A stretch of 60,344 nucleotides of DNA from Deltaproteobacteria bacterium. GTDB lineage: Bacteria; Myxococcota_A; UBA9160; UBA6930. Below, in pieces: positions 16,901 through 41,354 of this stretch. Position 1 is the stretch's first letter. Each line of letters begins with the position of its first letter. The translations under genes and the position numbers were made by a program. The DNA is taken from assembly GCA_031387905.1 (NCBI GenBank), contig JANNDT010000277.1, forward strand, positions 1 through 60,344, given 5' to 3'. The notes beneath the pieces are model-generated. The model had not been told where the DNA came from, searched no databases, and saw only the letters and a program-made list of their open reading frames with translations.

Positions 16901-16928
16901 TTCAGAGAGAGCGCGTCGAGGCGCGCGC

Positions 16929-18001: not shown

Positions 18002-18030
18002 TTGACGCTGACCCGCGTTCGCTCTGGATT
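18002..18030 (+). promoter_or_regulatory. Candidate sigma70-type promoter (TTGACG-N17-TGGATT) for the enoyl-CoA hydratase gene
   Basis: Hexamers read by eye 23 nt upstream of the ATG at 18053. The -10 element is weak. Confidence 0.25.
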
Positions 18031-18052
18031 CCCAGGCCCTGAAGGAGTGCGC

Positions 18053-21312: not shown

Positions 21313-21336
21313 CGCCCTCTCCCATCCGACATGACG

Positions 21337-21379
21337 CACCAGCGAAGGATCGGGGTCTGACCCCTTTCTTTCGCTGGTG
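21337..21379. repeat. REP-like palindromic element, copy 1
   Basis: CACCAGCGAAGGATCGGGGTCTGACCCCTTTCTTTCGCTGGTG. The outer 10-bp arms are CACCAGCGAA/TTCGCTGGTG and the inner arms are GGGGTC/GACCCC. Confidence 0.65.
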
Positions 21380-21424
21380 TCGCAACTAACGACCGAACCC
21401 CCCGAAAACCCTCTTACCGCCCCC

Positions 21425-21464
21425 CACCAGCGAAAGATTGGGGTCTGGCCCCGTTCTTTCGGTG
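21425..21464. repeat. REP-like palindromic element, copy 2 (direct orientation, about 88% identical to copy 1)
   Basis: CACCAGCGAAAGATTGGGGTCTGGCCCCGTTCTTTCGGTG. Confidence 0.6.
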
Positions 21465-21478
21465 CGCGACGCGCTGCG

Positions 21479-22636: not shown

Positions 22637-22638
22637 GA

Positions 22639-23694: not shown

Positions 23695-24200
23695 CAGATG
23701 TGCTCCTTGTACGTCTCGTAGGGCGCGTCCGGCTCGCCGCTCGGCTCGAAGTAGAGAATGTTCGCGACCGAAGTCGTCCACTGTTCGCGCGGTTTCCAGA
23801 CGGCTTTCACGCGCATGCCCATGTGCACGTCTTCGAGCTTGCACTTGAGCAGGTGCATCAGAATCGTGTTCGCGCCGTCGAGCAGAACCTGCGCCGTGAT
23901 GTACGGCAGCTCGAGCGGAATGTTCGCGCTCGGCACGCGCACGATCGAATACGTGACGAGCGTGCCGCAATCCGCCAGCTCGACCGGCTCACCGTCGATC
24001 ACGACGCCGTGCTGCGGACACGAACCACGCGTCGGGAAGTAGACGCGCCCGTCCACCGGGCAGCGCTGCCCCAACAACTTTCCCTGCGCGATCGCGCGCA
24101 GAAAGCGCGATGCGCTCTGCCCGGCCGAGAACGTGTAGTCGAGCTCGATCGGCGTCAGCAGGATTTCCACGGGCCCCAAAGCTTGCGGCTTGTCGCTCAT
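23694..24200 (-). CDS. DUF35 OB-fold / zinc-ribbon protein (168 aa)
   Basis: FLRAIAQGKLLGQRCPVDGRVYFPTRGSCPQHG is the rubredoxin-like knuckle, followed by an OB-fold segment. Confidence 0.8.
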   Translation of the reverse strand: MSDKPQALGPVEILLTPIELDYTFSAGQSASRFLRAIAQGKLLGQRCPVDGRVYFPTRGSCPQHGVVIDGEPVELADCGTLVTYSIVRVPSANIPLELPYITAQVLLDGANTILMHLLKCKLEDVHMGMRVKAVWKPREQWTTSVANILYFEPSGEPDAPYETYKEHI

Positions 24201-24201
24201 C

Positions 24202-24651
24202 TCAAGCCTCCGGCACGAACGCGGTGATGTCGGTGATCGCGCCGACGGTCTCGGCTCGCCAGCGCGCGCGCACGCGCATACCCGTCTTCATTAGGCTCTC
24301 GCTGCCCGCATCGACGACGTGCAGCAGCGGCGTCGCCGCGCCGTCGAGCTGAATCAGTGCGTAGGCGAACGGGTGCGCGAGCGGCTGTTGCTTGCGCGGC
24401 GTGTACACCCACGCCCAGCTCTTGACGACGCCCGCGTCCCTAACAGGCACGAGTTCGGTGAGCGCCTCCGCAGTGTCCGGGTCGTACTCCTTCGGCGGCA
24501 CCATCACGCTGCCGTCCTTGCGCCGCACGCCGAGGATCTGGCGATCGCGCAGCGCTGTGAAAAACTTGCCGAGCACGGGCCCGAGCGAGCGCTTGTAGGT
24601 GTACGAGAGCTTGTGCGGCGCGGTGAGCGCGGGCTCGCTGGGTTGGGTCAT
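24202..24651 (-). CDS. DUF35 OB-fold protein (149 aa)
   Basis: MTQPSEPALTAPHKLSYTYKRSLGPVLGKFFTALRDRQILGVRRKDGSVMVPPKEYDP. The ATG is at 24651. Confidence 0.75.
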   Translation of the reverse strand: MTQPSEPALTAPHKLSYTYKRSLGPVLGKFFTALRDRQILGVRRKDGSVMVPPKEYDPDTAEALTELVPVRDAGVVKSWAWVYTPRKQQPLAHPFAYALIQLDGAATPLLHVVDAGSESLMKTGMRVRARWRAETVGAITDITAFVPEA

Positions 24652-24678: not shown

Positions 24679-24692
24679 TGAAACAGGTTCCA
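24679..24692. promoter_or_regulatory. KstR-type operator match TGAAACAGGTTCCA (TnnAACnnGTTnnA)
   Basis: Full match to all 8 fixed positions, 28 nt upstream of the DUF35 ATG at 24651. Confidence 0.55.
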
Positions 24693-24717
24693 ATTCGCGA
24701 AACAAGCCGCAGCGTTC

Positions 24718-25749
24718 TCAACTCTCGCGCAAATCGGAGACGACCCGCGCGAACACCGCGTCGTGCATCGAGTCCGCCGGCATGCGCAGGCTAATGCCGT
24801 CCGCGCTGCCCGCGTAGCGCGCTCGGATCAGCGCCGCGATTTCGCTGAAGCCCGCGCTCGGCACGAGCACCTCGAGCATCTCGTCGGTGATGACACTCTT
24901 CATGCCCGCCCAGTCGTTCGCGCGCGTCTTTGCGAGCAGCGCGCGGCCCACGTCGCCCCAGCCGTGATGCTCGAGCGTTCCCCAATAAGCGGGCGTCGAA
25001 TAGGTGAAGGCGAGCACCTCGCGGGCGGCCTCGCGTTCGCGCGCGACGCAAGCGGCGTCGGGGCCCGTCGCGACCATCGGATTCGCGATGACTCGAATCG
25101 CGCTCGCCGCGCGGCCCGCCTTGGCCGCGCCCTCCGCGAGCCTCGGCCGCATTTCATCTCTCAGATATGTCGGCGAAGAGTTCGTGGGGTGCGCGATCAC
25201 GCAGTCTGCGACTTCGCCTGCTACGCCGGTCATCAGGGGACCGATCGCGCCCAGCCAGACCGGGATGCGGGCGTGCTCGGGCGGCAGCGCATCCGGCCTG
25301 AAGAACGGCTGCATGCGCGTGAGCGAGTACGACGCGCTCCGGTACGCGAGCGGCTCGCCCGTCTGGAACGCCTCGAAGCACGCGCGCAGCGCGCCGACGT
25401 AATCGCGCATGCGCGCAGCCGGTGCGCTCCACGGCATGCCGAAGCGGCCCTCGACATTGCCTTTGACTTGCGGCCCGAGCCCGATCGCGAAGCGGCCGCC
25501 TGATAACTGCGCGAGCGCCCAGCTGTCCTGCGCCACGAGCATCGGGCTGCGCGCGAACGCGACGATCACGCCCGTAGCGACGCGCAGCCGCGTCGTACTC
25601 GCGAGCGCGAGCGTCGCGGCGGGAATCGCGTCGTACGCCGCCTCGGGCACGACGAGCCCGTCGAAGCCCAAGCGCTCTGCCCGCTGTGCGTGCGCCGCCA
25701 TCCTCGCGAGCGGCATGCGCACATCGTCGACGGAAGCCCAGACTTGCAT
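24718..25749 (-). CDS. LLM-class (luciferase-like) flavin/F420-dependent oxidoreductase
   Basis: 343 aa. AERLGFDGLVVPEA and GRFAIGLGPQVKGNVEGRFGMPW are typical of the LLM TIM-barrel. Confidence 0.85.
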   Translation of the reverse strand: MQVWASVDDVRMPLARMAAHAQRAERLGFDGLVVPEAAYDAIPAATLALASTTRLRVATGVIVAFARSPMLVAQDSWALAQLSGGRFAIGLGPQVKGNVEGRFGMPWSAPAARMRDYVGALRACFEAFQTGEPLAYRSASYSLTRMQPFFRPDALPPEHARIPVWLGAIGPLMTGVAGEVADCVIAHPTNSSPTYLRDEMRPRLAEGAAKAGRAASAIRVIANPMVATGPDAACVAREREAAREVLAFTYSTPAYWGTLEHHGWGDVGRALLAKTRANDWAGMKSVITDEMLEVLVPSAGFSEIAALIRARYAGSADGISLRMPADSMHDAVFARVVSDLRES

Positions 25750-25756
25750 CGGCTTC

Positions 25757-26677
25757 CTACGCCATCGGTAGCGCGAAGGAATCGTCGATCGGCTTCCTCG
25801 TCGCGAAGAACGGGCCGAGCACTTTCTGTAGCTCGTCGACCGTCCACGGCACGTCGTGCTCGTGGTCGAGCGCGGGTTTCGGCGCGGCGTACACGCGCAC
25901 GTGCTTGCCCCACATCTGGATCAGGTTGCCGCTGACGTTCTGCGCGAGCGGCGAGGCGATCCATGCGACCACGGGGCCGATGTGTTCCGGCGCGTAGGTG
26001 TCGAAGCCTTCCGCTGGCGGCTTGTACATCTCCGCCCAGGCCGAGGCCATCGTCATGCGCGTGCGCGCGCGCGGCAAGATCACGTTCGCCGTCGCGCCGA
26101 GGCGCTGGCACTCACGCGCGGCCGATAGTGTTAGGTGCGTGAGCGCCGCCTTCGCCGCTGCGTAATTCGACTGACCGAGGTTGCCCATCATGAACGAGTC
26201 CGATGCAGTGCTGATCAGGCGCCCGTAGACCGGCTCGCCGCCGTTCGCTCTCGAGCGATCGCGCCAGTGAGCCATGGTGTGGCGGATCATGCAGAAGTGG
26301 CCCTTGGCGTGGACGCGCAGCACCGAGTCCCATTGCTCCTCGCTCATCTTCTGGAGCATGCCGTCGCGCGAGAAGCCGGCGTTGTTGACGAGGATGTTGA
26401 GATCGCCGAACGCGTCGACCGCGCTCTTCACGATGCGCTCGGATTGCGTGAAGTCCGCGACGTCGCCGAACGCGGCGATCGCGCGGCCGCCTGCGGCCTC
26501 GATCTCGCGCACGACTTCGCGCGCTGGCGCATCGCTCGTGCCACTGCCGTCGGCATTCGTGCCGAGGTCGTTCACGACCACGGCTGCACCTTGGCGCGCC
26601 AGTTCGAGCGCCTCGATGCGCCCGAGCCCGCCGCCCGCGCCCGTAACAATCGCAACTCTGCCTGCCAGAACCGACAT
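25757..26677 (-). CDS. SDR, MFE-2/Hsd4A-like (R)-3-hydroxyacyl-CoA dehydrogenase type
   Basis: Motifs: GRVAIVTGAGGGLGRIEALELARQGAAVVVNDLG, NNAG, YAAAKAA. The ATG at 26677 gives 306 aa. Confidence 0.85.
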   Translation of the reverse strand: MSVLAGRVAIVTGAGGGLGRIEALELARQGAAVVVNDLGTNADGSGTSDAPAREVVREIEAAGGRAIAAFGDVADFTQSERIVKSAVDAFGDLNILVNNAGFSRDGMLQKMSEEQWDSVLRVHAKGHFCMIRHTMAHWRDRSRANGGEPVYGRLISTASDSFMMGNLGQSNYAAAKAALTHLTLSAARECQRLGATANVILPRARTRMTMASAWAEMYKPPAEGFDTYAPEHIGPVVAWIASPLAQNVSGNLIQMWGKHVRVYAAPKPALDHEHDVPWTVDELQKVLGPFFATRKPIDDSFALPMA

Positions 26678-26703
26678 CTCGATTTCCTCTTTGACTGGTT
26701 GCT

Positions 26704-27885
26704 TCAGATCCGCTCGATCAGCGTGGCCGTGCCGATCGCCGAGCCGCAGCACATCGTGATCAGCGCGCGGCTCTTGCCCGTGCGCTCGAGTTCGTGCAGC
26801 GCGGACACGATCAGTCGCGAGCCGGTCGCGCCAACCGGGTGGCCGAGCGCGATCGCGCCGCCGTTCGGGTTCACGCGCGCGGGGTCGATCTCGGGGAACG
26901 CGCGCTGCCACGCGAGCACCACGGCGGCGAAGGCTTCGTTGCACTCGAACACGTCGACTTCGCGCAAGTCGAGCTTGGTCTTCGCGAGCAACTTGCGCGT
27001 CGCATCGATCGGGCCTTCGAGCAGGAACGACGGATCGCAACCGACGACGACGTCGTGGCGGATGCGCGCGCGCGCGCGCAGGCCATGCGCCTTGGCCTTC
27101 TCGGCGCTCATGTAGAGCAGGCCCGCCGCGCCGTCCGAAACCTGAGAAGAGTTGCCCGCCGTGTGAATGCCGCCGGCCTGCACGGGCTTCAGCGCTGCGA
27201 GGCCCTCGCGCGTCGTCGCGCGGATGCCTTGATCGGTGACGATGCGCTGCGTCGCGCCGGTGGGCTTGCCGTCCTCCCCAACAACTGGCGCCTCGATCGG
27301 CAGAATCTCGCGCGCGAAGTGGCCCGCGGCCGTGGCTCTCGCGGCGAGGTCCTGCGAGCGCAGCGCGAGAGCATCGACGTCGTCGCGCGTGATTCCCCAC
27401 TTCGCGGCGATGCGCTCGATCGCGATGAACTGCGACATCGGCTCGTCCCACGGAAAGCCGGGAGGCAAGAAGAAGCCGGGGCCGTGCATCACGTTGGCGC
27501 CGAGCCCGACGTGGCTCATCAGCTCGATACCGCAGGCGATGCCGCAATCGATCGAGCCGCCCTTGATGAGTGCGCTCACCAGGTTGTTCGCTTGCTGGCC
27601 CGAGCCGCACTGGACGTCCAGCGTGGTGCCCGCGGTGGAGTAGTCGCTCGCGACCGCACCGAGCCAGGCGTGGCGCGCGATGTTATTGGACTGCTCGCCC
27701 GCCTGGGTCACGCAGCCGCCGAAGATCTGCTCGACCTCTCTCGGCTCGATGCCGGCCTTCTCGACCAAGCCGATCTGCAAGCGTCCGAGCAACTGCGCAG
27801 CGTGAAACCCCGAGAGGTCGCCCTTCCCCAGCTTCCCGCGCCCGAGCGGCGTGCGAAGTGCTTCGACGATTACCGCGTCTGCCAT
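26704..27885 (-). CDS. Acetyl-CoA C-acyltransferase (true thiolase, FadA-like)
   Basis: Motifs: LDVQCGSGQQA, NPNGGAIALGHPVGATG, CCGSAIGTA. The ATG at 27885 gives 393 aa. Confidence 0.9.
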   Translation of the reverse strand: MADAVIVEALRTPLGRGKLGKGDLSGFHAAQLLGRLQIGLVEKAGIEPREVEQIFGGCVTQAGEQSNNIARHAWLGAVASDYSTAGTTLDVQCGSGQQANNLVSALIKGGSIDCGIACGIELMSHVGLGANVMHGPGFFLPPGFPWDEPMSQFIAIERIAAKWGITRDDVDALALRSQDLAARATAAGHFAREILPIEAPVVGEDGKPTGATQRIVTDQGIRATTREGLAALKPVQAGGIHTAGNSSQVSDGAAGLLYMSAEKAKAHGLRARARIRHDVVVGCDPSFLLEGPIDATRKLLAKTKLDLREVDVFECNEAFAAVVLAWQRAFPEIDPARVNPNGGAIALGHPVGATGSRLIVSALHELERTGKSRALITMCCGSAIGTATLIERI

Positions 27886-27905
27886 CTCATCCTCCAAGTC
27901 TCCGC

Positions 27906-29075
27906 TCACGCTCTTCCGAGAATCAAGGCGCCGGTCGGAACGCCGACGCCGCTGGTGACGAGCACGTGGTCGGCTCGCGCGGGCTGGTTCGCGGATTGCC
28001 CGCGCACGAGGCGCGCGCCTTCGGCGATGCCGTTCACGCCGTGGATGTAGGCCTCGCTGAGCAGGCCGCCGTGCGTGTTGTTGGGGAGCCGGCCGCCCAC
28101 TTCGAGCGCGCCGCCTTTGATGAAGTCCTTGGCCTCGCCCTTCTTGCAGAAGCCGAACGATTCGAGCTGGATCAGCACCTCGGGCGTGAACGCGTCGTAA
28201 AGAATCGTCGCGTCGATGTCCTTGGGGCCGAGCTTGGCCTGCGCGTAGACCTGTTTGCCCGCGAGCTCCATCTCGGGCAGCGCCGCCATGTCGGGGCGAT
28301 AGAAGCTCGTCATTTGCTCCTGGCCCGCGGCCGAAGCCTGCGCGACCCCGCGAATCAGCGCGGCCGGCTGCTGGAGATCGCGCGCGCGCTCGGGCGTGGT
28401 GATGAGGAGCGCGCAGCCGCCGTCGGTCTCCTGGCAGCAGTCGTAGAGCCGCAGCGGCTCCGTCACCCAGCGCGCCGCGAAGTACTGCTCGCGCGTGAGC
28501 GGCTGCTGATAGAACGCGGCGTTCGGGTTCGTGACCGCGTGCTTGCGCGTCGCGAGCGCGATCGTCGCGAGGTCGTCGCAGGTCGCGCCGTACTCGTGCA
28601 TGTAACGCTGCGCGCAGAGCGCCACCCACGAGGCGGGCGTCAACATCCCGAACGGCATGTACCAGGACCAATGAATTAGGTCGCTGGTGATGATGTTGCC
28701 GCTGACGCCTTGCCCCATGCGCTGGCCCGAGCGCCCGTTCAGCGCGCGGTAGACGACGACGTACTTCGCGGCGCCCGTCGCCACCGCCATCGCGGCTTGG
28801 TGGACGAGCCCGACGCAGGCGCCGCCGCCGTACGCAATGCGGCTGAACAGCGTCATCTCGCCAATGCCGACCGTGCGCGCCACTTCGACTTCGTCGCTCG
28901 AGTCCATCAGGAACGTGACGAGTCCGTCGACATCGCGAGGCGAGAGGCCGGCGTCGTCGATCGCCGCGCGCACGGCCTGCGAGGCGAGGCTCAACTCCGA
29001 GACACCCGAGTTCTTCGAGTACTTCGTCTGCCCGATGCCCGCGATTGCGGCTTCGTTGTTCAGCGTGATCGGCAT
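27906..29075 (-). CDS. Thiolase-like lipid-transfer protein (Ltp2-like candidate aldolase)
   Basis: MPITLNNEAAIAGIGQTKYSKNSG and NTHGGLLSEAYIHGVNG. It is 389 aa and lies directly after the MaoC pair. Confidence 0.8.
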   Translation of the reverse strand: MPITLNNEAAIAGIGQTKYSKNSGVSELSLASQAVRAAIDDAGLSPRDVDGLVTFLMDSSDEVEVARTVGIGEMTLFSRIAYGGGACVGLVHQAAMAVATGAAKYVVVYRALNGRSGQRMGQGVSGNIITSDLIHWSWYMPFGMLTPASWVALCAQRYMHEYGATCDDLATIALATRKHAVTNPNAAFYQQPLTREQYFAARWVTEPLRLYDCCQETDGGCALLITTPERARDLQQPAALIRGVAQASAAGQEQMTSFYRPDMAALPEMELAGKQVYAQAKLGPKDIDATILYDAFTPEVLIQLESFGFCKKGEAKDFIKGGALEVGGRLPNNTHGGLLSEAYIHGVNGIAEGARLVRGQSANQPARADHVLVTSGVGVPTGALILGRA

Positions 29076-29085
29076 GCGCGGCTCC

Positions 29086-29499
29086 CTAAGCGCTCGGCAA
29101 CTGCACGCGCACTCTGGCGGTGACGTGGGTGCCCCAAGCGTTGTTGCCGGCCACTTCGATCTCGACGAGCTCGGGCGTCGCCGAGAGCACTCTGCCGCGC
29201 AGTCTGAGCGTGTCGCCCGGCAAGTTCGGACCGCCGAGCTTCAGCCAGACGCCCTTCACCACGGCGTTCGGGCCGCTCCAATCCGTGACGTAGCGCCCGA
29301 CCAGTCCTTTGGTGGTGAGGATGTTCATGAACATGTTGGGGAGGCCTTGCGCCTGCGCGGCGCCGGGGTCGTGGTGCACGGGCGTGTAGTCGCGCGAGGC
29401 GATCGCGCCGCCGGCGACGAGCGTCGCGGTGATCGGCAGATCGAGCGGCGGCAGCGCATCGCCGGGCTTCACGTCCGAGCTGCGAAGCGTCGGCTTCAT
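29086..29499 (-). CDS. MaoC-like hotdog hydratase, small subunit (ChsH1-like, 137 aa)
   Basis: GAIASRDYTPVHHDPGAAQAQGLPNMFMNILT. An ATGA overlap joins it to the upstream dehydrogenase stop. Confidence 0.8.
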   Translation of the reverse strand: MKPTLRSSDVKPGDALPPLDLPITATLVAGGAIASRDYTPVHHDPGAAQAQGLPNMFMNILTTKGLVGRYVTDWSGPNAVVKGVWLKLGGPNLPGDTLRLRGRVLSATPELVEIEVAGNNAWGTHVTARVRVQLPSA

Positions 29500-30629
29500 G
29501 CGTTCGCAAGGCCATGCGCGGCGAGGTCGGCGCCGAGTGCGGCGAGCTGCACCGAGGCGCCGCCGAGGGCGAGCTCGAGGCTCTTCGACCATAAGAAGTA
29601 GCGCTGGATCGGATAGTCGATGTCGGAGCCGATCCCGCCGTGCAGGTGCAGGGCGGCGTTCACGATGCGCGAGCCGCCCTCTGATGCCCAGATTTTCGCG
29701 ACGCGCGCTTCGCGCTGCGCGGGCAAGCCCTCCGCGAGGCGGTAGGCCGCGCGCCAGAGCGTCCAGCGCATCGCCTCGAGATCGATGAACGCGTCGGCCT
29801 CGCGATGCTGCACCGCCTGGAACGATCCGATCGGCACGCCGAACTGGACGCGTTCGCGCGTGTACTGCGCCGTGATCGCGAGCGCACGGTCGCACACGCC
29901 GGCTTGCAGCGCGGCGAGCGCCGTCAGCGCGCGCGGCTCGAGCCAGCGCAGAATCGCAGCGCCATCGGCGGGCAGCCGGGCTTCCTCGCTGACTCGCACA
30001 GCGCGGAGTGTTAGGTCGAACAGCGGCTCGCCGCTCGAGACGCGCTTCCCTTCGAGCGACACGCCGCTGCCCTGCGTCTCGACCACGAACACCGCGACGC
30101 CGCGCTCGGTGCTCGCGGGCACGAGCACCGCGCTAGCCGCGCGCGCGTGCGGCACGAAGCGCTTTGCGCCGTCGATCACCCAGTCGGCGCCTTCGCGGCG
30201 CGCGCGCGTCGCCGGTGCGAGCGCGTTCGCGGAGCCCGCGTCGTCGAGCGCCGCAGTCAGGATCGCCTCGCCCCTCGCGACGCGCGGCAGCCAGCGCGCT
30301 CGCTGCCCCGCGCTAGCGAACTCGGCGAGTGGCAGCGCGCCGAGCACGAGCGCGGCGAACGCCGCATTCGGCGCGGCTGCGCGGCCGATCTCTTCGAGCA
30401 GCACGCACAGCTCGCGAAAGCCCATGCCCATGCCGCCGTGCGCTTCGGGCAGCGCGATCCCCAACAAGTTGGCGGCGGCGAGTCGCTGCCAGAGCGCGGC
30501 ATCGATCCAGTCCTCGGTCTTTTCGGCCGCGCGCAGCCGCTCCTGTGTCGCTTCTTGCTCGAGAATCCCGCGCGCGAGGTCGCGCACGCTCTGCTGCTCT
30601 TCCGAGTAGGCAAAATCCATGGTTGTCAT
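29496..30629 (-). CDS. Acyl-CoA dehydrogenase family protein (377 aa)
   Basis: MDFAYSEEQQSVRDLARGILEQE and HGGIGSDIDYPIQRYFLWS. It overlaps the stop of the upstream gene. Confidence 0.9.
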   Translation of the reverse strand: MTTMDFAYSEEQQSVRDLARGILEQEATQERLRAAEKTEDWIDAALWQRLAAANLLGIALPEAHGGMGMGFRELCVLLEEIGRAAAPNAAFAALVLGALPLAEFASAGQRARWLPRVARGEAILTAALDDAGSANALAPATRARREGADWVIDGAKRFVPHARAASAVLVPASTERGVAVFVVETQGSGVSLEGKRVSSGEPLFDLTLRAVRVSEEARLPADGAAILRWLEPRALTALAALQAGVCDRALAITAQYTRERVQFGVPIGSFQAVQHREADAFIDLEAMRWTLWRAAYRLAEGLPAQREARVAKIWASEGGSRIVNAALHLHGGIGSDIDYPIQRYFLWSKSLELALGGASVQLAALGADLAAHGLANA

Positions 30630-31612
30630 GCCGCCGGCTTGAAGAGCGGCAGCTTGAAGCCGTCTTCATCGCTGTGAATGAAGCACTCGACGCGCATGCC
30701 GATCTTCACGTGCTTGGGATCGCAGCCGACGAGGTTCGAGAGGATGCGCTCGCCCTCTTCGAGGTCGACCAGCGCGGCGACGATCGGGAAGTCGTAACCC
30801 GGAAACTGCGGGTAGTGGATCACGGTGAAGCTGTGCAGTGTCCCGCGTCCGCTCGCCGCGATCGAATCCCAGGCGAGCGAGCCGCACGCGTCGCACATCG
30901 GGCGCGGTGGGTGGCGCAGCTTGTTACAAGCTTTGCAGCGCTGGATCGGCAGGTGGTTCTTCTCGGCGACCTCGGTCCACCACCAGCCGTTGTCGTGGCC
31001 CATCGGCGGCTTCAGGCGCGACGGCTTTGCGGCCTGCGTCGCACCGCCGCTCGCGGCGGCTGCCGCGCGCGGCGCTTCCTTCGGGATGAACTTCAGCACG
31101 CGGAACGTCTGCCAGCCGACCTCCGCGCCCGCTCGATCCGTGAAGCGCGTGCGCGTGGTGATGAAGAAGCCGACGCCCGCGCCGGTCGCCTTCTCTTCGC
31201 TGATCTTCTCGATCACGGTCTCGGCCGTGACCGCGTCTCCCGGCTTCAGGTAGCGGTGGAACGCCTGCTCGGTGTCGGTCCCTAACACGCCCGTGTAGCC
31301 CGCGTCGCTGAGCAGCTTGTGTAGGCGATGCTCTTCGTTCTGCGGCGTGTCGTAGCCCTTGTGCATCTCCCAGCCCTGCATCGTCCAGGCGTCGAGCATC
31401 ATCGGCGGCGCAACGAGCGTGCCGAACACGCTCTCCTTCGCGGCGGCCGGGTCGAGGTACACCGGGTTCGCATCGCCCATCGCATCGCACCACTGGCGAA
31501 TCATCGGCTCGTTCACCGCGTCGCGGCCCGTGAACTTCGGGCCAATCGGCTTGCCGACGAACGCGCGGATGCTCGTCTCGAGCGCTTGTTTTTGTCCCGC
31601 CGTGAGCGGCAT
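30626..31612 (-). CDS. MaoC N-terminal-type hydratase fused to a C-terminal DUF35 domain (ChsH2-like, 328 aa)
   Basis: The N-half has DAVNEPMIRQWCDAMGDANPVYLDP. The C-half has LPIQRCKACNKLRHPPRPMCDACGS plus an OB-fold. The ATG is at 31612. Confidence 0.8.
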   Translation of the reverse strand: MPLTAGQKQALETSIRAFVGKPIGPKFTGRDAVNEPMIRQWCDAMGDANPVYLDPAAAKESVFGTLVAPPMMLDAWTMQGWEMHKGYDTPQNEEHRLHKLLSDAGYTGVLGTDTEQAFHRYLKPGDAVTAETVIEKISEEKATGAGVGFFITTRTRFTDRAGAEVGWQTFRVLKFIPKEAPRAAAAASGGATQAAKPSRLKPPMGHDNGWWWTEVAEKNHLPIQRCKACNKLRHPPRPMCDACGSLAWDSIAASGRGTLHSFTVIHYPQFPGYDFPIVAALVDLEEGERILSNLVGCDPKHVKIGMRVECFIHSDEDGFKLPLFKPAA

Positions 31613-31623
31613 GTCGCTCTCCT

Positions 31624-32808
31624 CTACCTGCGCGAGCGCGGCTGGCCGAGGCCCGCCTGCGCGATGATGTCGCGCTGCACTTCGTTCACGCCGCCGCCGT
31701 AGGTGTTCACCATGGCGAGGCGGTAAGCGCCTTCCATTAGGCCGTCGGTCACCGAACCGGGCTCGCCGCGGCGCGCGATGCCGAGGGACTCGGTGATCTC
31801 GAGCAGCTGGCGATAACAATCGATCACCATCTCGGTGCCGAATACTTTCACGGCGCTGGCGTCGGCCATACCCGGCGTGCCCTGATCGATCAACCACGCG
31901 CTTCGCCAATTCAGCACTTTCAGCGCTTCGAGCTTCGCGTAGACGCGCGCGAGGTTGGCCTGCACCCACGGCACTCCCGCAACGAGCCCGCCGCCTGGCC
32001 GCTCCGTGGTGCGCGCCCACCCGACGACTTCCTCGTACACTTTTTCGAGCGAGGCCGGCATCGCGAGCGTGATGCGCTCGAGGTTCAGCTGGCCGGTGAT
32101 CAGGGTCCAGCCGCCGTTCACCGGGCCAACCGTGTTCGTGAGCGGAACGCGCACGTCTTCGTAGTAGGTGACGTTGGTGCGCTCACCGCCGAGCGTGGTG
32201 ATGGGCGTCGAGCTGAAGCCTTTCGCCGAGTTCGGCACGAGGATGATCGAGATGCCCTTGTGCTTCGGCACCTCGGAATCGGTGCGCGCCGCGAGCCAGA
32301 TGTAGTCGGACTCGTGACCGTGGGTGGTGAAGACCTTCTGGCCGTTGATCACCCACGCGTCGCCGTCGCGAACTGCGCGCGTCTTCAGCGACGCCAGATC
32401 GGTGCCGGCGGACGGCTCGGAGTAGCCGATCCCGAACAGCATCTCGCCGTTGCGAATCTTCCCTAAGAAGTGACTTTTCTGTTCGTCGCTCCCGTACTTC
32501 ATCAGCATCGGGCCGACCGTGTTCACCGTAATCAGCGGTAGCGGCGCGCGCGCGCGCCAGGTCTCGTCCCAGAAGATGAACTGCTCGAGGTGGCTGCGGC
32601 CTTGGCCGCCCCATTCGCGCGGCCAGCCGATCGTCAGCCAGCCGTCCTTGCCCATGCGGCCCATCGCTTCGCGAAACGCCGGGCCGCCGAGTTGGTCCCA
32701 CTCCGCGTCGAGCCGGGCGCGCAGGTCGCCTTCTGCGAACAGCTCCTTGTAGTAGGAGCGGATCTGCGCGCGCAGCGACTCTTGTTCGGGGGAGAGATCG
32801 ATCCGCAT
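31624..32808 (-). CDS. Acyl-CoA dehydrogenase family protein (394 aa)
   Basis: Motifs: MRIDLSPEQESLRAQI, GYSEPSAGTDLASLKT, GGGVNEVQRDIIA. The start is taken as the ATG at 32808, with an alternative TTG at 32826. Confidence 0.9.
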   Translation of the reverse strand: MRIDLSPEQESLRAQIRSYYKELFAEGDLRARLDAEWDQLGGPAFREAMGRMGKDGWLTIGWPREWGGQGRSHLEQFIFWDETWRARAPLPLITVNTVGPMLMKYGSDEQKSHFLGKIRNGEMLFGIGYSEPSAGTDLASLKTRAVRDGDAWVINGQKVFTTHGHESDYIWLAARTDSEVPKHKGISIILVPNSAKGFSSTPITTLGGERTNVTYYEDVRVPLTNTVGPVNGGWTLITGQLNLERITLAMPASLEKVYEEVVGWARTTERPGGGLVAGVPWVQANLARVYAKLEALKVLNWRSAWLIDQGTPGMADASAVKVFGTEMVIDCYRQLLEITESLGIARRGEPGSVTDGLMEGAYRLAMVNTYGGGVNEVQRDIIAQAGLGQPRSRR

Positions 32809-32836
32809 CGGGGGGCCACCGGGCAATTCACGTTTT

Positions 32837-32850
32837 TGAAACGTGTTCTA
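32837..32850. promoter_or_regulatory. KstR-type operator match TGAAACGTGTTCTA
   Basis: Full match to TnnAACnnGTTnnA, 29 nt upstream of the ATG at 32808. It lies between the TetR stop and the first dehydrogenase gene. Confidence 0.55.
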
Positions 32851-32911
32851 GTTTCGGATTATGCCCACGACGCGCCGTCGTGTCGAGAACGAAAGCCCTC
32901 GAACGCGCGGC

Positions 32912-33556
32912 TCAGCCGCCCTCGAGTACCAGCTCGATCGTCTCCTGCATGCGCTCCATCACGGTTGCGATCGGGTGGAGCCCGCTCGCCCAGCCGATCA
33001 GCGAGGAGAACCAGACGTGCTGGAGCACGCGCGCGATCAGGCGTTCGCGCTCGCTCCCGACGAGTTCGGAGAGCGGCGTCGCTGCGTCCGCGGGCTCGCC
33101 GCGCAGCGCCGCGACGATCATGCGCGACATGCGCAGGTGAAACGCGGCTTGCTGCACCGCGCTCGCGGCCTCGCTCGCCGCGATCGCGCGCAGCACGGCG
33201 CGCGCGAAGTTCGGTCGCCGCGTGAGCCCGCGCGTCGCGCGCGCGAACAGCTCGACCAGGCGCTCCGTCGCGCGCGCCGATTCGGGCGGGCGTGCGGCGA
33301 GGATCCGCAGCAGCTGCTCGTTGTCCTCGTTCACCGCGAAGAGCAGCACGTCTTCCTTGCTGCGGAAGTACTTGTAGAGCGTGCCGAGTGCGACGCCGGA
33401 GGCGTCGGCCACATCGCGCAGCCGCACCGCGTCGAAGCCGCCCGACTCCGCGAGCGCAATCGCCGCGTCGACGATGCGCCGGATGCGCTTCAGCTGCGAA
33501 ACCGCGAGCCGCGGCGGCGAGAACTCGCTCACGGGCTCAGCTGCGTCGGTGGGCAT
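32912..33556 (-). CDS. TetR/AcrR family transcriptional regulator (KstR-like by context)
   Basis: HTH region RRIVDAAIALAESGGFDAVRLRDVADASGVALGTLYKYFRSKEDVL. Confidence 0.9.
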   Translation of the reverse strand: MPTDAAEPVSEFSPPRLAVSQLKRIRRIVDAAIALAESGGFDAVRLRDVADASGVALGTLYKYFRSKEDVLLFAVNEDNEQLLRILAARPPESARATERLVELFARATRGLTRRPNFARAVLRAIAASEAASAVQQAAFHLRMSRMIVAALRGEPADAATPLSELVGSERERLIARVLQHVWFSSLIGWASGLHPIATVMERMQETIELVLEGG

Positions 33557-33564
33557 TTCGGAAT

Positions 33565-33578
33565 TAGAACATGTTGCA
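33565..33578. promoter_or_regulatory. KstR-type operator match TAGAACATGTTGCA
   Basis: Full match to TnnAACnnGTTnnA, 9 nt upstream of the TetR ATG at 33556. This is a candidate autoregulatory site. Confidence 0.55.
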
Positions 33579-33599: not shown

Positions 33600-33620
33600 C
33601 GCGGGGACGTTCCATAACTT
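33600..33620. repeat. Left terminal inverted repeat of the RAYT unit
   Basis: Read directly. It is followed by a tandem ATAACTTC ATAACTTC duplication. Confidence 0.8.
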
Positions 33621-34450
33621 CATAACTTCGCGCGGCGGAGCATCTTCGAGACTGCGGGTTGAGAGACGCCCAAGCGGCGGCCCACCGCGGTCAGCGACAT
33701 GCCGAGTTCCTGCACCGCCGCCCGCGCCAGCATCTCCCGCGCGCGAACCGCCGCGCGCGTCCGAGATCGCGACAGGAGCTCCCCGACCGAGCTCCCGGCA
33801 GCCCGCGCAGCATGGGCGGCAATCGCGTCGAAGTTCGCGCCTTGGAAGTCGGCGGGCGCACGCGTTGGCCTAGGCAGCCGCGGCTTCCAGTCTCGCGGCG
33901 CCGGAACGCGCCGAGCGTTCGCGACGGCTGCATGGGCAGCGGCGGGGTCGCGCTCAAACAGCGCGAGCGTCATCGCAGCCGCCTCGAAGGCGTGCGGTGG
34001 GCGCGCGCCGACGACCGCACCGTGGCCGCACCACGCGTACGCCGCGAGGTCATCCAGCAGCACGAGCTTCGCTTCGACTGGGTTTCGGTGGACGTAGGCG
34101 ACCGCGGCCGCGAGGTACGCGTCGGTGTCGACCACCGAAGACAGAAAGCGATTGTGGAAGACGTGCCCGATGCGACGGTGGCGGTTGTTGAAGTAGACCG
34201 CGTAGCCCGTAGCGAGGCGCCGCATCAGCAGCGACAGGCCGGCGTTACCGGAGCGCAACACCAGGTGGACGTGGTTTGGCATGAGAGCCCAGGCAAGGCA
34301 GAGGCAGCCGAGCTCTTGAATCAAGCGATCGAGGCGGGCGATGAACTCGAGACGGTCTGCGTCGTCGAGAAAGATCCGGTGTCGATCGATTCCTCGGAGT
34401 CGAACGTGATGGGTGACGCCCGGGGCGTCGAAGCGAGGGCCGCGGGGCAT
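33620..34450 (-). CDS. REP-associated tyrosine (Y1, HUH) transposase with a C-terminal DnaA-C-like HTH
   Basis: HUH motif PNHVHLVL, catalytic Tyr region AYVHRNPVEAKLV, and C-terminal LGMSLTAVGRRLGVSQPAVSKMLRRAKL. Confidence 0.85.
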   Translation of the reverse strand: MPRGPRFDAPGVTHHVRLRGIDRHRIFLDDADRLEFIARLDRLIQELGCLCLAWALMPNHVHLVLRSGNAGLSLLMRRLATGYAVYFNNRHRRIGHVFHNRFLSSVVDTDAYLAAAVAYVHRNPVEAKLVLLDDLAAYAWCGHGAVVGARPPHAFEAAAMTLALFERDPAAAHAAVANARRVPAPRDWKPRLPRPTRAPADFQGANFDAIAAHAARAAGSSVGELLSRSRTRAAVRAREMLARAAVQELGMSLTAVGRRLGVSQPAVSKMLRRAKL

Positions 34451-34535: not shown

Positions 34536-34556
34536 AAGTTATGGAACGTCCCCGCG
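34536..34556. repeat. Right terminal inverted repeat of the RAYT unit
   Basis: AAGTTATGGAACGTCCCCGCG. It overlaps the last 5 codons and the stop of the membrane-SDR gene. Confidence 0.8.
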
Positions 34557-35750
34557 CTTCACCCACTTCGCGATGACGCTCTTGGCGATCAGGGCGAGCA
34601 GACTGCGCGGGAGGAGGCGCATGCCGGCGTTGGCGCGCAGCCAGTTGAACCAGCCGGAGATCACCGACGGCTGGTAACCGAGCGCGTCGAACGCGTCGCG
34701 CACGACGCTGGCCGGGCTCGCGCCTTCGTGCGGGAGTTCGTCGGCGGCGACGGCGAACTCGGTGTCGGTCGAGCCGGGCAAGAGCGAGAGCGCATCGACG
34801 CCGGTGCCCTGCAGCTCGCCCCATAATGACTCGCCCAGGTAGTTGTCGAATGCCTTGCTGGCGCTGTAGAGCGCATGCAGCGGGAGCGGCTGCGAGCCCG
34901 AGACGGAGCCGGTGAAGATCAGAGCGCCGCGTTTGCGCGCGACCATCCTGGGAAGCAGCTCTGCTGTTAGGGCGACCGGGGTCGCGCAGTTGAGCTGCAC
35001 CATCGCGGCGAGGCGCGCGGGCTCCTGTTCGTGGAAGCGGCCGACGTAACCAACGCCGGCGTTGTTCACGAGCACCGCGATCTCGAGATCCGCGACGGCC
35101 GCGAGCAGCGTGCGCACGCCGGCTTCGCTCGCGAGATCGCAGGCGACGCAGCGCACGCGCACGCCACTGTCTTCGCGCAGCTCTTGCGCGAGCCGTTCGA
35201 GCTTGTCCGCGCGGCGCGCGGCGAGCACGAGCGAAACGCCGTCGCGTGCGAGCGCTCGCGCGAACTCGGCGCCAATCCCGGACGATGCGCCCGTGACTAG
35301 CGCCCAGTCGCCGTAACGCTCGCGCAGCGACATCCGGCGCGGCTGGAAGAGTTCGCGCGAACGCCAGAGTTCGCGGGCGATCACCCCGAACACGAACGCG
35401 GCAACGGCGCCGCTGGCGATCGCGAGGGGTTCCCGCTTGTACAGGAACGGCCACACCAGCATTGAGAAGGAAACCTGTGCGGCGTAGTAAGCCGCCCATG
35501 GCCACAGCCAGGCGCGCATCCGCCAGAAGCCGAGCACCCCGGCGCCATACACGAACCAATGCGCCGGCTCGAGCAGCTTCGCCCAGACGCCATCGAAGCG
35601 GATGCCGAACCACACTTCCTCGTCGTAGCGCGTCGGCTTCATCAGCAGGTCCCAGGGGACGTAGATGAACGCCATGAACGCGCAGAACAACAGCAGCGCA
35701 TTCATCCACCACGGGCGTCGCGCGAACTGGTGGCGTAGCCAAACGCGCAT
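34539..35750 (-). CDS. Membrane-anchored SDR: about 130-aa multi-TM N-domain fused to a classical SDR
   Basis: The N-domain is rich in W/F hydrophobic helices (WWMNALLLFCAFMAFIYVPW, WLWPWAAYYAAQVSFSMLVWPFLY). The SDR part has ALVTGASSGIGAEFARALARDG, NNAG and YSASKAF. Confidence 0.8.
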   Translation of the reverse strand: MRVWLRHQFARRPWWMNALLLFCAFMAFIYVPWDLLMKPTRYDEEVWFGIRFDGVWAKLLEPAHWFVYGAGVLGFWRMRAWLWPWAAYYAAQVSFSMLVWPFLYKREPLAIASGAVAAFVFGVIARELWRSRELFQPRRMSLRERYGDWALVTGASSGIGAEFARALARDGVSLVLAARRADKLERLAQELREDSGVRVRCVACDLASEAGVRTLLAAVADLEIAVLVNNAGVGYVGRFHEQEPARLAAMVQLNCATPVALTAELLPRMVARKRGALIFTGSVSGSQPLPLHALYSASKAFDNYLGESLWGELQGTGVDALSLLPGSTDTEFAVAADELPHEGASPASVVRDAFDALGYQPSVISGWFNWLRANAGMRLLPRSLLALIAKSVIAKWVKRGDVP

Positions 35751-35753
35751 CGA

Positions 35754-40002: not shown

Positions 40003-40031
40003 TCCGGGTGTTGGGATCTCGCTGGGTCAGC

Positions 40032-41321: not shown

Positions 41322-41354
41322 CGCTCGGCTCGTCCCAACAACCGCGCGCCGCCG

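What the first reader, a model, noticed from the sequence alone, without database searches (positions are those of the whole stretch)
24679..33578. Three exact matches to the actinobacterial KstR operator consensus, all at promoter positions of a Gram-negative acyl-CoA catabolic cluster
Seen, three 14-mers matching TnnAACnnGTTnnA:
- TGAAACAGGTTCCA at 24679..24692, 28 nt before the DUF35 ATG.
- TGAAACGTGTTCTA at 32837..32850, 29 nt before the first dehydrogenase ATG.
- TAGAACATGTTGCA at 33565..33578, 9 nt before the TetR ATG.

My rough estimate, assuming about 16% A and 16% T, is about 0.1 chance matches in 60 kb. All three observed matches are intergenic and lie upstream of minus-strand genes, and two of them sit at nearly identical spacing.

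Established knowledge: this consensus defines the KstR (TetR-family) regulon that controls cholesterol catabolism in mycobacteria and rhodococci.

Inference: the TetR at 32912..33556 is a KstR-like autoregulated repressor of at least two transcription units. That would be unexpected for a PEP-CTERM/RND-bearing Gram-negative genome. I did not scan the coding regions exhaustively.
Basis: partly seen in the sequence, partly recalled or inferred. Interest (0 to 1): 0.7.

Follow-up and report, generated by a model that had tools for sequence, protein, structure and literature searches.

The report
KstR-type repressor operators in a myxobacterial genome
Three short palindromes in front of a fat-burning gene cluster are very probably the docking sites of a repressor related to KstR, the cholesterol-catabolism switch of tuberculosis bacteria, found here in uncultured Myxococcota, a phylum where this system has not been described.

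Summary
TNNAACNNGTTNNA occurs exactly three times in the window, against 0.12 expected, and all three sites are intergenic. The same palindrome lies just upstream of the TetR homologue in 76 of 80 related genomic loci, all from MAGs mostly labelled Myxococcota or Deltaproteobacteria.

The TetR gene (32912..33556, minus strand) is closest to M. tuberculosis KstR by sequence, by domain architecture (TetR_N + TetR_C_20) and by predicted fold. It is a distant relative: 32% identity, and 111.6 bits against NCBI's KstR cut-off of 280.

The controlled genes are close homologues of actinobacterial sterol side-chain enzymes:
- ChsE4/ChsE5-like acyl-CoA dehydrogenases
- ChsH1/ChsH2-like hydratase
- Ltp2 aldolase
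- FadA5 thiolase
- a DUF35 plus two SCP-x-type thiolase unit and an acyl-CoA ligase

The operators overlap promoter elements. At the TetR promoter the site fills the -35/-10 spacer and supplies part of the -10 of an apparently leaderless gene. At the other two promoters it covers the expected transcription start.

Best reading: an autoregulated KstR-family repressor that is released by an acyl-CoA thioester. It is a new member of a known kind. Binding, the ligand and the true substrate are inferred, not shown.

The parts
33565..33578 (-). Operator 3, in the TetR gene's own promoter. It reads TGCAACATGTTCTA on the gene strand. Its last 4 nt plus AT form the -10-like hexamer TCTAAT (33563..33568), and the ATG follows 6 nt later.
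   Evidence: Exact match. A homologous site lies upstream of the TetR homologue in 76 of 80 loci. All 76 have a TCTAAT, TTCAAT or similar hexamer overlapping the site's 3' end. In 60 of 76 the first in-frame start codon lies 5-9 nt after that hexamer.
32912..33556 (-). TetR-family repressor gene of the KstR-like subfamily (214 aa).
   Evidence: Pfam TetR_N + TetR_C_20. Best PDB hit is Mtb KstR, E 2.4e-18 over residues 20-210. NCBIfam KstR 111.6 bits, below the 280 cut-off, with the next family at 40 bits. Identity to KstR is 32% overall and 50% in the DNA-binding domain. hhalign probability 99.5%. AlphaFold2 pLDDT 90.7, and the top 16 Foldseek hits are KstR chains, with TM-score normalised by target length (TMt) up to 0.95.
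32837..32850 (-). Operator 2, reading TAGAACACGTTTCA on the gene strand. It starts 7 nt after the -10 of the dehydrogenase operon promoter, over the expected transcription start.
   Evidence: Exact match. The site and its position relative to the -35 and -10 hexamers are conserved in 9 aligned loci within otherwise diverged spacers. In all, 16 loci have a site upstream of an ACADa homologue.
32858..32886 (-). Sigma-70-like promoter of the dehydrogenase operon: TCGACA, 17 nt, CATAAT.
   Evidence: 10 of 12 consensus matches; shuffles of the region gave a mean of 0.0 hits. Both hexamers are conserved across L001-L005, L011, L015 and L077.
24718..32808 (-). Transcription unit 1, eight genes. ACADa 31624..32808; ChsH2-like MaoC+DUF35 30626..31612; ACADb 29496..30629; ChsH1-like MaoC 29086..29499; Ltp2-like aldolase 27906..29075; FadA5-like thiolase 26704..27885; SDR 25757..26677; F420-type LLM oxidoreductase 24718..25749.
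   Evidence: Pfam. NCBIfam: FadA5 NF005889 535.5 bits (cut-off 515), Ltp PRK07855 594 (469), LLM TIGR03617 315.7 (278). PDB best hits: Ltp2 to T. curvata Ltp2 6ok1_A, 1.4e-150; hydratase to ChsH2 DUF35 and ChsH1/ChsH2; ACADa to 4x28_A, 1e-122, and 6wy8_B; ACADb to 6wy8_A, 2e-84. The gene order is conserved in L001-L007, L011, L018, L040 and L077.
24679..24692 (-). Operator 1, reading TGGAACCTGTTTCA on the gene strand. It lies between the LLM stop codon and the DUF35 gene and directly follows a weak promoter-like pair: TTGAGA (24716..24721), 17 nt, GCGAAT (24693..24698).
   Evidence: Exact match. L003 has the same arrangement at the same junction (TCGACA, 17 nt, CGAAAT, then TGCAACGTGTTTCA). 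The consensus promoter scan did not call a promoter here, so this promoter is my reading of the sequence.
19762..24651 (-). Transcription unit 2, five genes. DUF35 24202..24651; DUF35 23694..24200; SCP-x-type thiolase-like 22639..23694; SCP-x-type thiolase-like 21479..22636; acyl-CoA ligase 19762..21312 (start inferred).
   Evidence: Pfam. NCBIfam PRK07937 520.9 bits (cut-off 419) and PRK08313 655 (514); the ligase is nearest FadD4/PRK12406 but below their cut-offs. In most of the 80 loci this unit directly follows the TetR gene. Ligase start.

Best explanation
**What it is.** The gene at 32912..33556 encodes a KstR-family TetR repressor. As a dimer it would bind the 14-bp palindrome T(G/A)(A/G)AAC-NN-GTT(T/C)(C/T)A, which is probably part of an 18-bp palindrome, ATTGAAACNNGTTTCAAT.

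**How repression would work.** The window has three such operators, each placed so that a bound repressor would block RNA polymerase.
- At its own promoter the operator fills the spacer and supplies the first four bases of the -10. The start codon follows 6 nt after the -10, which implies a leaderless mRNA and direct autorepression.
- At the dehydrogenase operon promoter (TCGACA-17-CATAAT) the operator begins 7 nt after the -10, over the transcription start.
- At a weak internal promoter before the DUF35 gene the operator directly follows the -10-like hexamer.

**What it controls.** The two controlled units encode an actinobacterial-type pathway for beta-oxidative and retro-aldol shortening of a sterol-like side chain.
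- Unit 1: a two-subunit acyl-CoA dehydrogenase, a ChsH1/ChsH2-like hydratase, an Ltp2 aldolase, a FadA5 thiolase, a short-chain dehydrogenase and an F420-type oxidoreductase.
- Unit 2: two DUF35 proteins, two SCP-x-type thiolase-like proteins and an acyl-CoA ligase.

**How it would be induced.** By analogy with KstR, whose effector is 3-oxocholest-4-en-26-oyl-CoA, an acyl-CoA thioester made early in the pathway would bind the C-terminal domain and release the repressor.

**Shown.** Site positions and statistics, conservation across 80 loci, protein homologies, promoter-like hexamers.

**Inferred.** DNA binding, the leaderless start, the effector, and that the substrate is a sterol.
For: **Sites**
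- 3 sites against 0.12 expected, all intergenic.
- 113 sites in 1.29 Mb of related loci against about 2 expected.
- In those loci, about 79 sites lie upstream of the TetR homologue, 16 upstream of ACADa, 5 upstream of an enoyl-CoA hydratase, and 1-2 each upstream of DUF35 and a ligase. Seven are a coding coincidence.

**Promoters**
- TetR promoter across loci: T[GCA]GACA at exactly 17 nt in 39 of 76, a -10-like hexamer overlapping the site in 76 of 76, and a start codon 5-9 nt later in 60 of 76.
- A sigma-70-like promoter with 10 of 12 matches directly upstream of site 2. Its hexamers and the operator are the conserved blocks in the aligned spacers.

**Regulator**
- Nearest to KstR by sequence, domains and fold.
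- The next-best folds are the acyl-CoA-binding FadR proteins of Thermus and Bacillus.

**Target genes and precedent**
- The target enzymes are nearest to characterised steroid side-chain enzymes.
- The KstR consensus, binding as a dimer and an operator partly overlapping the -10 of kstR are documented in PMC1995591. The CoA-thioester effector is cited in PMC8700777.
Against: - The protein scores 111.6 bits against NCBI's KstR cut-off of 280 and is only 32% identical to KstR. Operator and ligand specificity therefore cannot simply be transferred.
- Synteny differs from kstR, which is divergent from fadE34. Here the TetR gene is co-directional with its targets.
- No steroid ring-opening genes, Mce4-type uptake genes or Cyp125 orthologue were seen with the motif in the window or among the ten flanking genes of four loci that were checked. 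The substrate could therefore be another branched or alicyclic acyl-CoA.
- The promoter for site 1 is weak and was not called by the scan. In this subclade the TetR -35 is poor (TTCCGT).
- Conservation of the 3' flank of the operator is confounded with the need for a -10 hexamer.
Confidence: 0.8

Rival explanations
1. The regulator-operator pair is real, but it is a general acyl-CoA (fatty-acid or branched-chain) beta-oxidation switch of the FadR/PsrA type. The substrate is not a sterol, and the match to the KstR consensus reflects a half-site (AAC/GTT) shared among related TetR proteins.
For: No ring-cleavage, Mce4 or Cyp125 genes are linked to the motif. The acyl-CoA ligase is nearest FadD4/PRK12406 rather than a steroid ligase. 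The dehydrogenases also resemble the pimeloyl-CoA dehydrogenase subunits PimC and PimD. FadR-type TetR proteins are the next-best folds. From memory, Pseudomonas PsrA binds GAAAC-N2-4-GTTTC.
Against: KstR beats FadR clearly: 69.9 against 36.8 bits, full length against N-terminus only, and target-normalised TM-score 0.86-0.95 against about 0.70. The enzymes are far closer to steroid-specific proteins than to general ones. Ltp2 scores 1.4e-150 against T. curvata Ltp2, ACADa 1e-122 against 4x28 compared with 1e-37 for generic dehydrogenases, and FadA5 passes the steroid thiolase equivalog cut-off.
Confidence: 0.2
2. The conserved palindromes are promoter or transcript elements, or the sites of a different protein, and not operators of the adjacent TetR.
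For: The 3' end of the TetR-proximal site doubles as the -10 hexamer. No binding data exist.
Against: The 5' half of the palindrome lies in the spacer, where a promoter imposes no sequence constraint, yet it is just as conserved. The same palindrome sits downstream of the -10 at the dehydrogenase promoter. The site travels with the TetR gene across proteins only 48-93% identical. The consensus equals the proven operator of the nearest characterised homologue.
Confidence: 0.05
3. The three matches are chance, or the contig is a mis-binned actinobacterial fragment.
For: The motif is short and degenerate, with 8 specified bases. Several of the enzymes have actinobacterial best hits.
Against: 0 of 100 shuffles reach 3 matches, and there are 113 against about 2 expected in orthologous loci. 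Homologous loci occur in 80 different species-level genomes, including long contigs and chromosomes labelled Myxococcota or Deltaproteobacteria (OZ245002.1 at 5.8 Mb, CP070734.1 at 3.7 Mb). The window also carries a membrane-fusion protein gene of an efflux system.
Confidence: 0.02

Closest known systems
KstR (Rv3574 / MSMEG_6042), the TetR-family repressor of the cholesterol side-chain and ring A/B regulon of mycobacteria and rhodococci
   Same: - Same domain pair, TetR_N + TetR_C_20.
- Closest in sequence and in predicted fold.
- Same operator core, TnnAACnnGTTnnA, with the same half-site variants (TAGAAC, TGGAAC, TGAAAC).
- An operator in its own promoter overlapping the -10, which implies autorepression.
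- Targets include homologues of ChsE4/ChsE5, ChsH1/ChsH2, Ltp2 and FadA5, and of what I recall as Rv3521-ltp4-ltp3.

   Different: - 32% identity, below the NCBIfam equivalog cut-off.
- Found in uncultured Myxococcota-type genomes, not Actinobacteria.
- Co-directional with, and often the first gene of, its target operon, rather than divergent from fadE34.
- No ring A/B, Mce4 or Cyp125 genes seen under the motif.
- The regulon seen here is small: 3 sites in 60 kb of window. Mtb has 16 further intergenic instances genome-wide.
TetR-type FadR acyl-CoA sensors (Thermus thermophilus FadR, Bacillus subtilis FadR/YsiA)
   Same: TetR repressors of beta-oxidation genes that are released by acyl-CoA. 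They are the next-best structural matches after KstR and the RHA1 protein 3bjb.
   Different: Much weaker similarity: 36.8 bits and N-terminus only, with target-normalised TM-score about 0.66-0.73. From memory, their operators differ and their ligands are straight-chain acyl-CoAs.
Steroid regulators of Proteobacteria (EdcR of Caenibius tardaugens; TeiR and others of Comamonas testosteroni)
   Same: They control steroid catabolic genes in Gram-negative bacteria. EdcR is also a TetR repressor, with a palindrome overlapping the -10 (PMC8700777).
   Different: EdcR has a different operator (TnnCnnTACnAnTnGTAnnGnnA) and steroid rather than CoA-ester effectors. TeiR is LuxR-type. The enzymes here are also of the actinobacterial type: Ltp2 scores 1.4e-150 against T. 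curvata Ltp2 but 1.8e-35 against 9myr, which I take to be the proteobacterial aldolase Sal.

Membership tests
KstR (NCBIfam NF033703 equivalog) | Scores above the curated whole-protein cut-off of the KstR model (280 bits) | tested here: not met
   111.6 bits. KstR is still by far the best family; the next scores 40 bits.
KstR-like TetR subfamily | TetR_N helix-turn-helix plus a TetR_C_20 (PF17925) ligand domain, alignable with KstR over the full length | tested here: met
   Window protein: TetR_N 51 bits, TetR_C_20 41.9 bits. Mtb KstR residues 17-196: TetR_C_20 131.6 bits. phmmer E 2.4e-18 over residues 20-210. hhalign probability 99.5%.
KstR-like TetR subfamily | KstR is the closest solved structure by fold | tested here: met
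   AlphaFold2 model with pLDDT 90.7. Foldseek ranks 1-16 are all Mtb KstR chains, with TM-score normalised by target 0.86-0.95 and rmsd 1.4 A to the DNA-bound form 5fmp.
KstR regulon | Palindromic operator TnnAACnnGTTnnA in the regulator's own promoter, overlapping the -10 | tested here: met
   Site at 33565..33578, 8 nt from the ATG, with its last 4 nt inside TCTAAT. The same arrangement is seen in 76 of 80 loci. The definition comes from PMC1995591. This tests sequence only; binding was not tested.
KstR regulon | The protein binds the operator as a dimer and is released by 3-oxocholest-4-en-26-oyl-CoA or related steroid-CoA esters | not testable with these tools
   Needs EMSA and ligand titration.
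KstR regulon | The regulon holds sterol side-chain and ring A/B degradation genes | tested here: inconclusive
   Side-chain homologues are present and strong. No KshA, KstD, Hsa, Mce4 or Cyp125-type genes were found under the motif in the window or in the ten flanking genes checked in four loci. Whole genomes could not be scanned.
KstR regulon | kstR is transcribed divergently from a fadE34-type acyl-CoA dehydrogenase gene (the synteny used to call orthologues) | tested here: not met
   The TetR gene is on the same strand as, and upstream of, the dehydrogenase or DUF35 operon in the window and in nearly all loci. The synteny criterion is from PMC1995591.
igr-type steroid side-chain module (ChsE / ChsH1-ChsH2 / Ltp2) | Paired alpha and beta acyl-CoA dehydrogenase genes, a MaoC hydratase with a DUF35 domain plus a small MaoC partner, and an Ltp2-type aldolase | tested here: met
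   Pfam architectures. Ltp PRK07855 594 bits (cut-off 469). 6ok1_A 1.4e-150 and 6ok1_B 8e-34, 4w78/4wnb 1e-30, 4x28 and 6wy8 at 1e-122 and 2e-84. Catalytic activity was not tested.
FadA5 (steroid 3-ketoacyl-CoA thiolase, NF005889 equivalog) | Scores above the curated cut-off (515 bits) | tested here: met
   535.5 bits.
FadR/PsrA-type fatty-acid TetR regulators | Closest characterised relative is a FadR-type protein | tested here: not met
   Bacillus FadR scores 36.8 bits on the N-terminus only, and NCBIfam FadR 40.4 bits against a cut-off of 200. Target-normalised TM-score is about 0.66-0.73, against up to 0.95 for KstR.

The most novel reading that the evidence does not exclude
Uncultured members of the Myxococcota, a phylum known for making sterols including cholesterol, carry an actinobacterial-type sterol side-chain cleavage pathway under a KstR-type CoA-thioester switch. 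They would then either feed on sterols of eukaryotic prey or plants, or trim the side chains of their own sterols into C19/C22 steroid products. This would be a steroid metabolism outside the Actinobacteria and Proteobacteria, probably acquired together with its regulator and operators by horizontal transfer.
Probability: 0.3. Interest if true: 0.75.

Novelty: new member of a known kind. Interest (0 to 1): 0.55.

Why it matters
- **Distribution.** KstR is a well-studied switch of cholesterol use in M. tuberculosis and of industrial phytosterol conversion, and it is treated as actinobacterial. Finding its operator, a related repressor and the side-chain enzymes conserved together across some 80 species-level Myxococcota-type genomes widens the known range of this regulatory system.
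- **A usable tool.** It gives a ready-made operator model for predicting regulons in those uncultured bacteria.
- **A biological question.** It raises the possibility that a sterol-producing phylum also degrades or remodels sterol side chains.
- **Regulator engineering.** It offers a distant natural variant (32% identity, same operator) for work on KstR DNA and ligand recognition, and possibly a new CoA-ester biosensor.

Tried and rejected
- **Weaker sites.** I looked for them in front of the other acyl-CoA genes of the window: the second dehydrogenase pair at 14405..17020, the EchA19-like hydratase at 17780..18856, the CoA-transferase and the P450. I used one-mismatch and weight-matrix scans. 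Nothing exceeded chance.
- **Steroid ring-degradation or uptake genes.** I looked through the rest of the window and through ten flanking genes in L007, L010, L018 and L036. I found only an aminotransferase, short-chain dehydrogenases, an NMO-family gene and unrelated genes.
- **The P450 at 40032..41354.** It is a general CYP107/Vdh-like enzyme, with reconstructed ancestral CYP125 (CYP125MRCA) entries only among the lower hits, and it has no motif, so I did not count it as part of the system.
- **Seven motif hits inside a ligase paralogue in six loci.** They proved to be the coding string WNSFNSF and were discarded as operators.
- **Origin of the window.** The exact TetR sequence is on record only on a 1.2-kb Logan contig, which was uninformative.
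- **KstR structure paper.** I could not obtain it (JBC 2016), so I made no residue-by-residue comparison of DNA or CoA contacts.
- **Literature.** Searches for KstR with Myxococcota or Deltaproteobacteria found nothing relevant. Searches for steroid degradation with Myxococcota gave only incidental mentions.
- **Promoter scan.** It did not call a promoter at site 1 or at the TetR gene, because its rule requires A at position 2 of the -10. Those two promoters are my own reading, supported by cross-locus conservation.


Full report
**1. The observation**

The pattern TNNAACNNGTTNNA has exactly three matches in the 60,344-bp window, at 24679, 32837 and 33565. Dinucleotide shuffles give a mean of 0.12 matches, and none of 100 reaches three.

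Allowing one mismatch adds four sites, which is about the chance level. A 20-position weight matrix built from related loci scores the three sites at 29-30 bits and nothing else above the shuffle range.

The window is 68% G+C. All genes of the region are on the minus strand.

Each site is intergenic:
- Site 1 lies 27 nt upstream of the ATG at 24651 of a DUF35 gene, which has an AGGAGG ribosome-binding site.
- Site 2 lies 28 nt upstream of the ATG at 32808 of an acyl-CoA dehydrogenase gene.
- Site 3 lies 8 nt upstream of the ATG at 33556 of a TetR gene.

**2. The genes**

Going downstream from the TetR gene (32912..33556):

| Gene | Coordinates |
|---|---|
| Acyl-CoA dehydrogenase ACADa | 31624..32808 |
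| MaoC/hot-dog + zinc-ribbon + OB (DUF35) protein | 30626..31612 |
| Acyl-CoA dehydrogenase ACADb | 29496..30629 |
| Small MaoC protein | 29086..29499 |
| SCP-x-type thiolase-like protein (Ltp2-like) | 27906..29075 |
| True thiolase (FadA5-like) | 26704..27885 |
| Short-chain dehydrogenase | 25757..26677 |
| Luciferase-like oxidoreductase (LLM) | 24718..25749 |
| Site 1 | 24679..24692 |
| DUF35 protein A | 24202..24651 |
| DUF35 protein B | 23694..24200 |
| SCP-x-type thiolase-like protein thlA | 22639..23694 |
| SCP-x-type thiolase-like protein thlB | 21479..22636 |
| Acyl-CoA ligase | 19762..21312 |

The closest characterised relatives are the steroid side-chain enzymes of Actinobacteria:
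- The SCP-x protein matches Thermomonospora curvata Ltp2 (6ok1_A) at 1.4e-150. It matches 9myr, which I take to be the proteobacterial aldolase Sal, at only 1.8e-35.
- The MaoC-DUF35 protein matches ChsH2(DUF35) and ChsH1/ChsH2.
- ACADa matches 4x28_A at 1e-122 and 6wy8_B, against about 1e-37 for generic dehydrogenases. From memory, 4x28 is the Mtb ChsE4-ChsE5 complex.
- ACADb matches 6wy8_A and 4x28_D.
- The thiolase passes NCBI's cut-off for steroid 3-ketoacyl-CoA thiolase (535.5 bits against 515). The Ltp model PRK07855 is also passed (594 against 469).
- The two downstream thiolase-like proteins pass PRK07937 and PRK08313. From memory, these models correspond to Ltp4 and Ltp3. Those are the aldol-lyases for C24-branched sterol side chains (Wilbrink 2012, as cited in PMC6593523).

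**3. The regulator**

- Domains: TetR_N plus TetR_C_20. M. tuberculosis KstR has the same pair.
- Sequence: KstR entries are its best solved-structure hits, E 2.4e-18 over residues 20-210. The next protein reaches 3e-13 on the N-terminal part only.
- Curated families: KstR is best at 111.6 bits, with the next at 40. The KstR cut-off of 280 is not reached.
- Identity: 32% over 179 aligned residues and 50% in the DNA-binding domain. The recognition-helix stretch reads VALGTLYKYF here and VAVGTLYRYF in KstR.
- Profile comparison: probability 99.5%.
- Fold: an AlphaFold2 model has pLDDT 90.7. Its top 16 Foldseek matches are all KstR chains, with target-normalised TM-score up to 0.95 and rmsd 1.4 A to the DNA-bound form. 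They are followed by a Rhodococcus TetR and then by the acyl-CoA-binding FadR proteins.

The protein therefore belongs to the KstR-like subfamily but is not a close orthologue of KstR.

**4. Related sequences**

The TetR has 872 homologues at E <= 1e-10. The named ones come from MAGs called Myxococcota or Deltaproteobacteria. A few JGI names already read "cholesterol catabolism regulator".

A scan of one genome per species returned 80 loci. Most are labelled Myxococcota, Deltaproteobacteria, Polyangiaceae or Binatia, and they include megabase-scale contigs and two chromosomes. A few carry other labels, such as "uncultured Spirochaetales".

The palindrome lies just upstream of the TetR homologue in 76 of 80 loci, across proteins 48-93% identical to the window's TetR. 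The consensus is TGAAAC(A/G)TGTT(T/C)(C/T)A. In total there are 113 sites in 1.29 Mb, against about 2 expected.

The sites that are not next to the TetR gene lie as follows:
- 16 upstream of ACADa-type genes
- 5 upstream of an enoyl-CoA hydratase
- 1-2 each upstream of the DUF35 unit and of a ligase
- 7 inside a ligase paralogue, which are the coding string WNSFNSF and not operators

Gene order is conserved in two forms:
- TetR followed directly by DUF35-DUF35-thiolase-thiolase-ligase (most loci).
- TetR followed by the eight-gene dehydrogenase-to-LLM unit and then the DUF35 unit (the window's form).

**5. How it most likely works**

*TetR promoter.* Across the loci the TetR upstream region reads T(G/C/A)GACA, then 7 nt, then the operator, then AT.
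- The -35-like hexamer sits exactly 17 nt from a -10-like hexamer (TCTAAT, TTCAAT or TTCAAA). That hexamer is formed by the last four operator bases plus two more.
- The first in-frame start codon follows 5-9 nt later in 60 of 76 loci.
- This is the layout of a leaderless gene whose promoter spacer and -10 are covered by its own repressor.
- In the window the -10 is TCTAAT (33563..33568) and the ATG follows after 6 nt. The -35 is poor (TTCCGT), as in the closest relatives.

*Site 2.* A promoter TCGACA-17-CATAAT (32886..32858, 10 of 12 matches) ends 7 nt before the operator. The two hexamers and the operator are the conserved blocks in an otherwise diverged spacer across nine loci.

*Site 1.* It directly follows TTGAGA-17-GCGAAT. 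L003 shows TCGACA-17-CGAAAT followed by the operator at the same gene junction. The scan tool did not call this weak promoter.

*Comparison with KstR.* In mycobacteria the KstR operator also partly overlaps the -10 of kstR, and the protein binds as a dimer (PMC1995591). The KstR effector is 3-oxocholest-4-en-26-oyl-CoA (PMC8700777). I therefore infer steric repression at three promoters and release by an acyl-CoA thioester made by the pathway's ligase. DNA binding, the effector and the leaderless start are inferences.

**6. What remains uncertain**

I found no ring-opening genes, Mce4-type uptake genes or Cyp125 orthologue under the motif, either in the window or in the ten flanking genes checked in four loci. 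Several sterol-related genes in the window lack the motif:
- a second dehydrogenase pair
- an EchA19-like hydratase
- a family III CoA-transferase
- a P450

The substrate could therefore be a sterol side chain, which I think most likely given the enzyme similarities. It could also be another branched or alicyclic acyl-CoA.

**7. Comparison with what is known, and novelty**

The system works like the KstR regulon. It meets the family's structural, operator and target-gene criteria. It fails the equivalog score and the fadE34 synteny criterion, and it lies outside Actinobacteria.

In the searchable literature no paper links KstR with Myxococcota. A survey of more than 8,000 genomes placed predicted aerobic steroid degraders only in Actinobacteria and Proteobacteria and does not mention Deltaproteobacteria or myxobacteria (PMC4810484). 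A metagenome survey does not mention them either (PMC5790920). Myxococcota are, however, known sterol producers, including of cholesterol (PMC10202945; bioRxiv 10.1101/2024.11.01.621555).

I rate it a new member of a known kind. It is a solid, conserved KstR-type switch in a new phylum, of moderate interest. Interest would be higher if these bacteria prove to metabolise sterols.

Noticed in passing
window 21313..21478 (cores at 21348..21362 and 21436..21450, minus strand): The spacer between the second thiolase-like gene and the acyl-CoA ligase holds two copies of a roughly 40-nt imperfect palindrome, CACCrGCGAAAGAAnGGGGyCAGACCCCrATCyTTCGCTGGTG. This looks like a REP-type repeat.
   Followed up: partly
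window 33620..34450 (minus strand); also L001, L002, L004: An IS200-like Y1 transposase domain fused to a helix-turn-helix lies directly upstream of the TetR gene. In exactly this subclade the TetR promoter lacks the TGGACA -35 hexamer seen in most other loci. A link to the REP-like repeats is possible but was not tested.
   Followed up: partly
window 24718..25749 (minus strand): The luciferase-like oxidoreductase passes NCBIfam's cut-off for an F420-dependent LLM family, TIGR03617 (315.7 bits against 278). That hints at coenzyme F420 use in a Myxococcota-type genome.
   Followed up: no
window 14405..17020 (minus strand), 17780..18856 (plus strand), 9645..10940 (minus strand): There is a second paired acyl-CoA dehydrogenase, an enoyl-CoA hydratase that passes PRK07799 and is close to EchA19 (331.5 bits against a cut-off of 400), and a family III CoA-transferase. 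All fit sterol side-chain chemistry, but none has the operator.
   Followed up: partly
window 39028..41354 (minus strand): A cytochrome P450 has the vitamin D3 25-hydroxylase Vdh among its best solved-structure hits and reconstructed ancestral CYP125 (CYP125MRCA) entries among lower ones. It sits next to an alpha/beta hydrolase. Neither has the motif.
   Followed up: partly
window 56255..57598 (plus strand): A gene with an ecdysteroid-kinase-like (EcKL) domain.
   Followed up: no
window 34539..37094 (minus strand); L007 6667..9247; L018 6453..9044; L010 7149..8366: A class III aminotransferase plus a roughly 400-aa short-chain dehydrogenase lie upstream of the TetR gene in the window, L007 and L018. 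In L010 only the dehydrogenase was checked and found. Their function is unknown.
   Followed up: no
L025, L027, L029, L030, L033, L036 (for example L029 9288..9310): Motif matches TGGAACTCGTTCAA and TTCAACTCGTTCCA inside an acyl-CoA ligase paralogue are the coding sequence for WNSFNSF. They would be false positives in any genome-wide scan with the 14-mer.
   Followed up: yes
L036 16761..16774: A site TGAAACCTGTTATA lies directly upstream of an NMO-family (nitronate monooxygenase-like) gene at 16776..17948. From memory this is the family of the steroid ring C/D enzyme IpdC, so it is a possible further regulon member.
   Followed up: no
L070, L072, L078, L080 (for example L072 9904..9939): Some distant loci carry two operators 22 nt apart upstream of the TetR homologue, which there is followed by the FadA5-like thiolase and the short-chain dehydrogenase.
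   Followed up: no
L002, L003, L008, L034, L037, L065, L078: Several loci whose gene order is typical of this lineage come from MAGs labelled "uncultured Spirochaetales" or "Spirochaetaceae". These are probably automatic mislabels.
   Followed up: no
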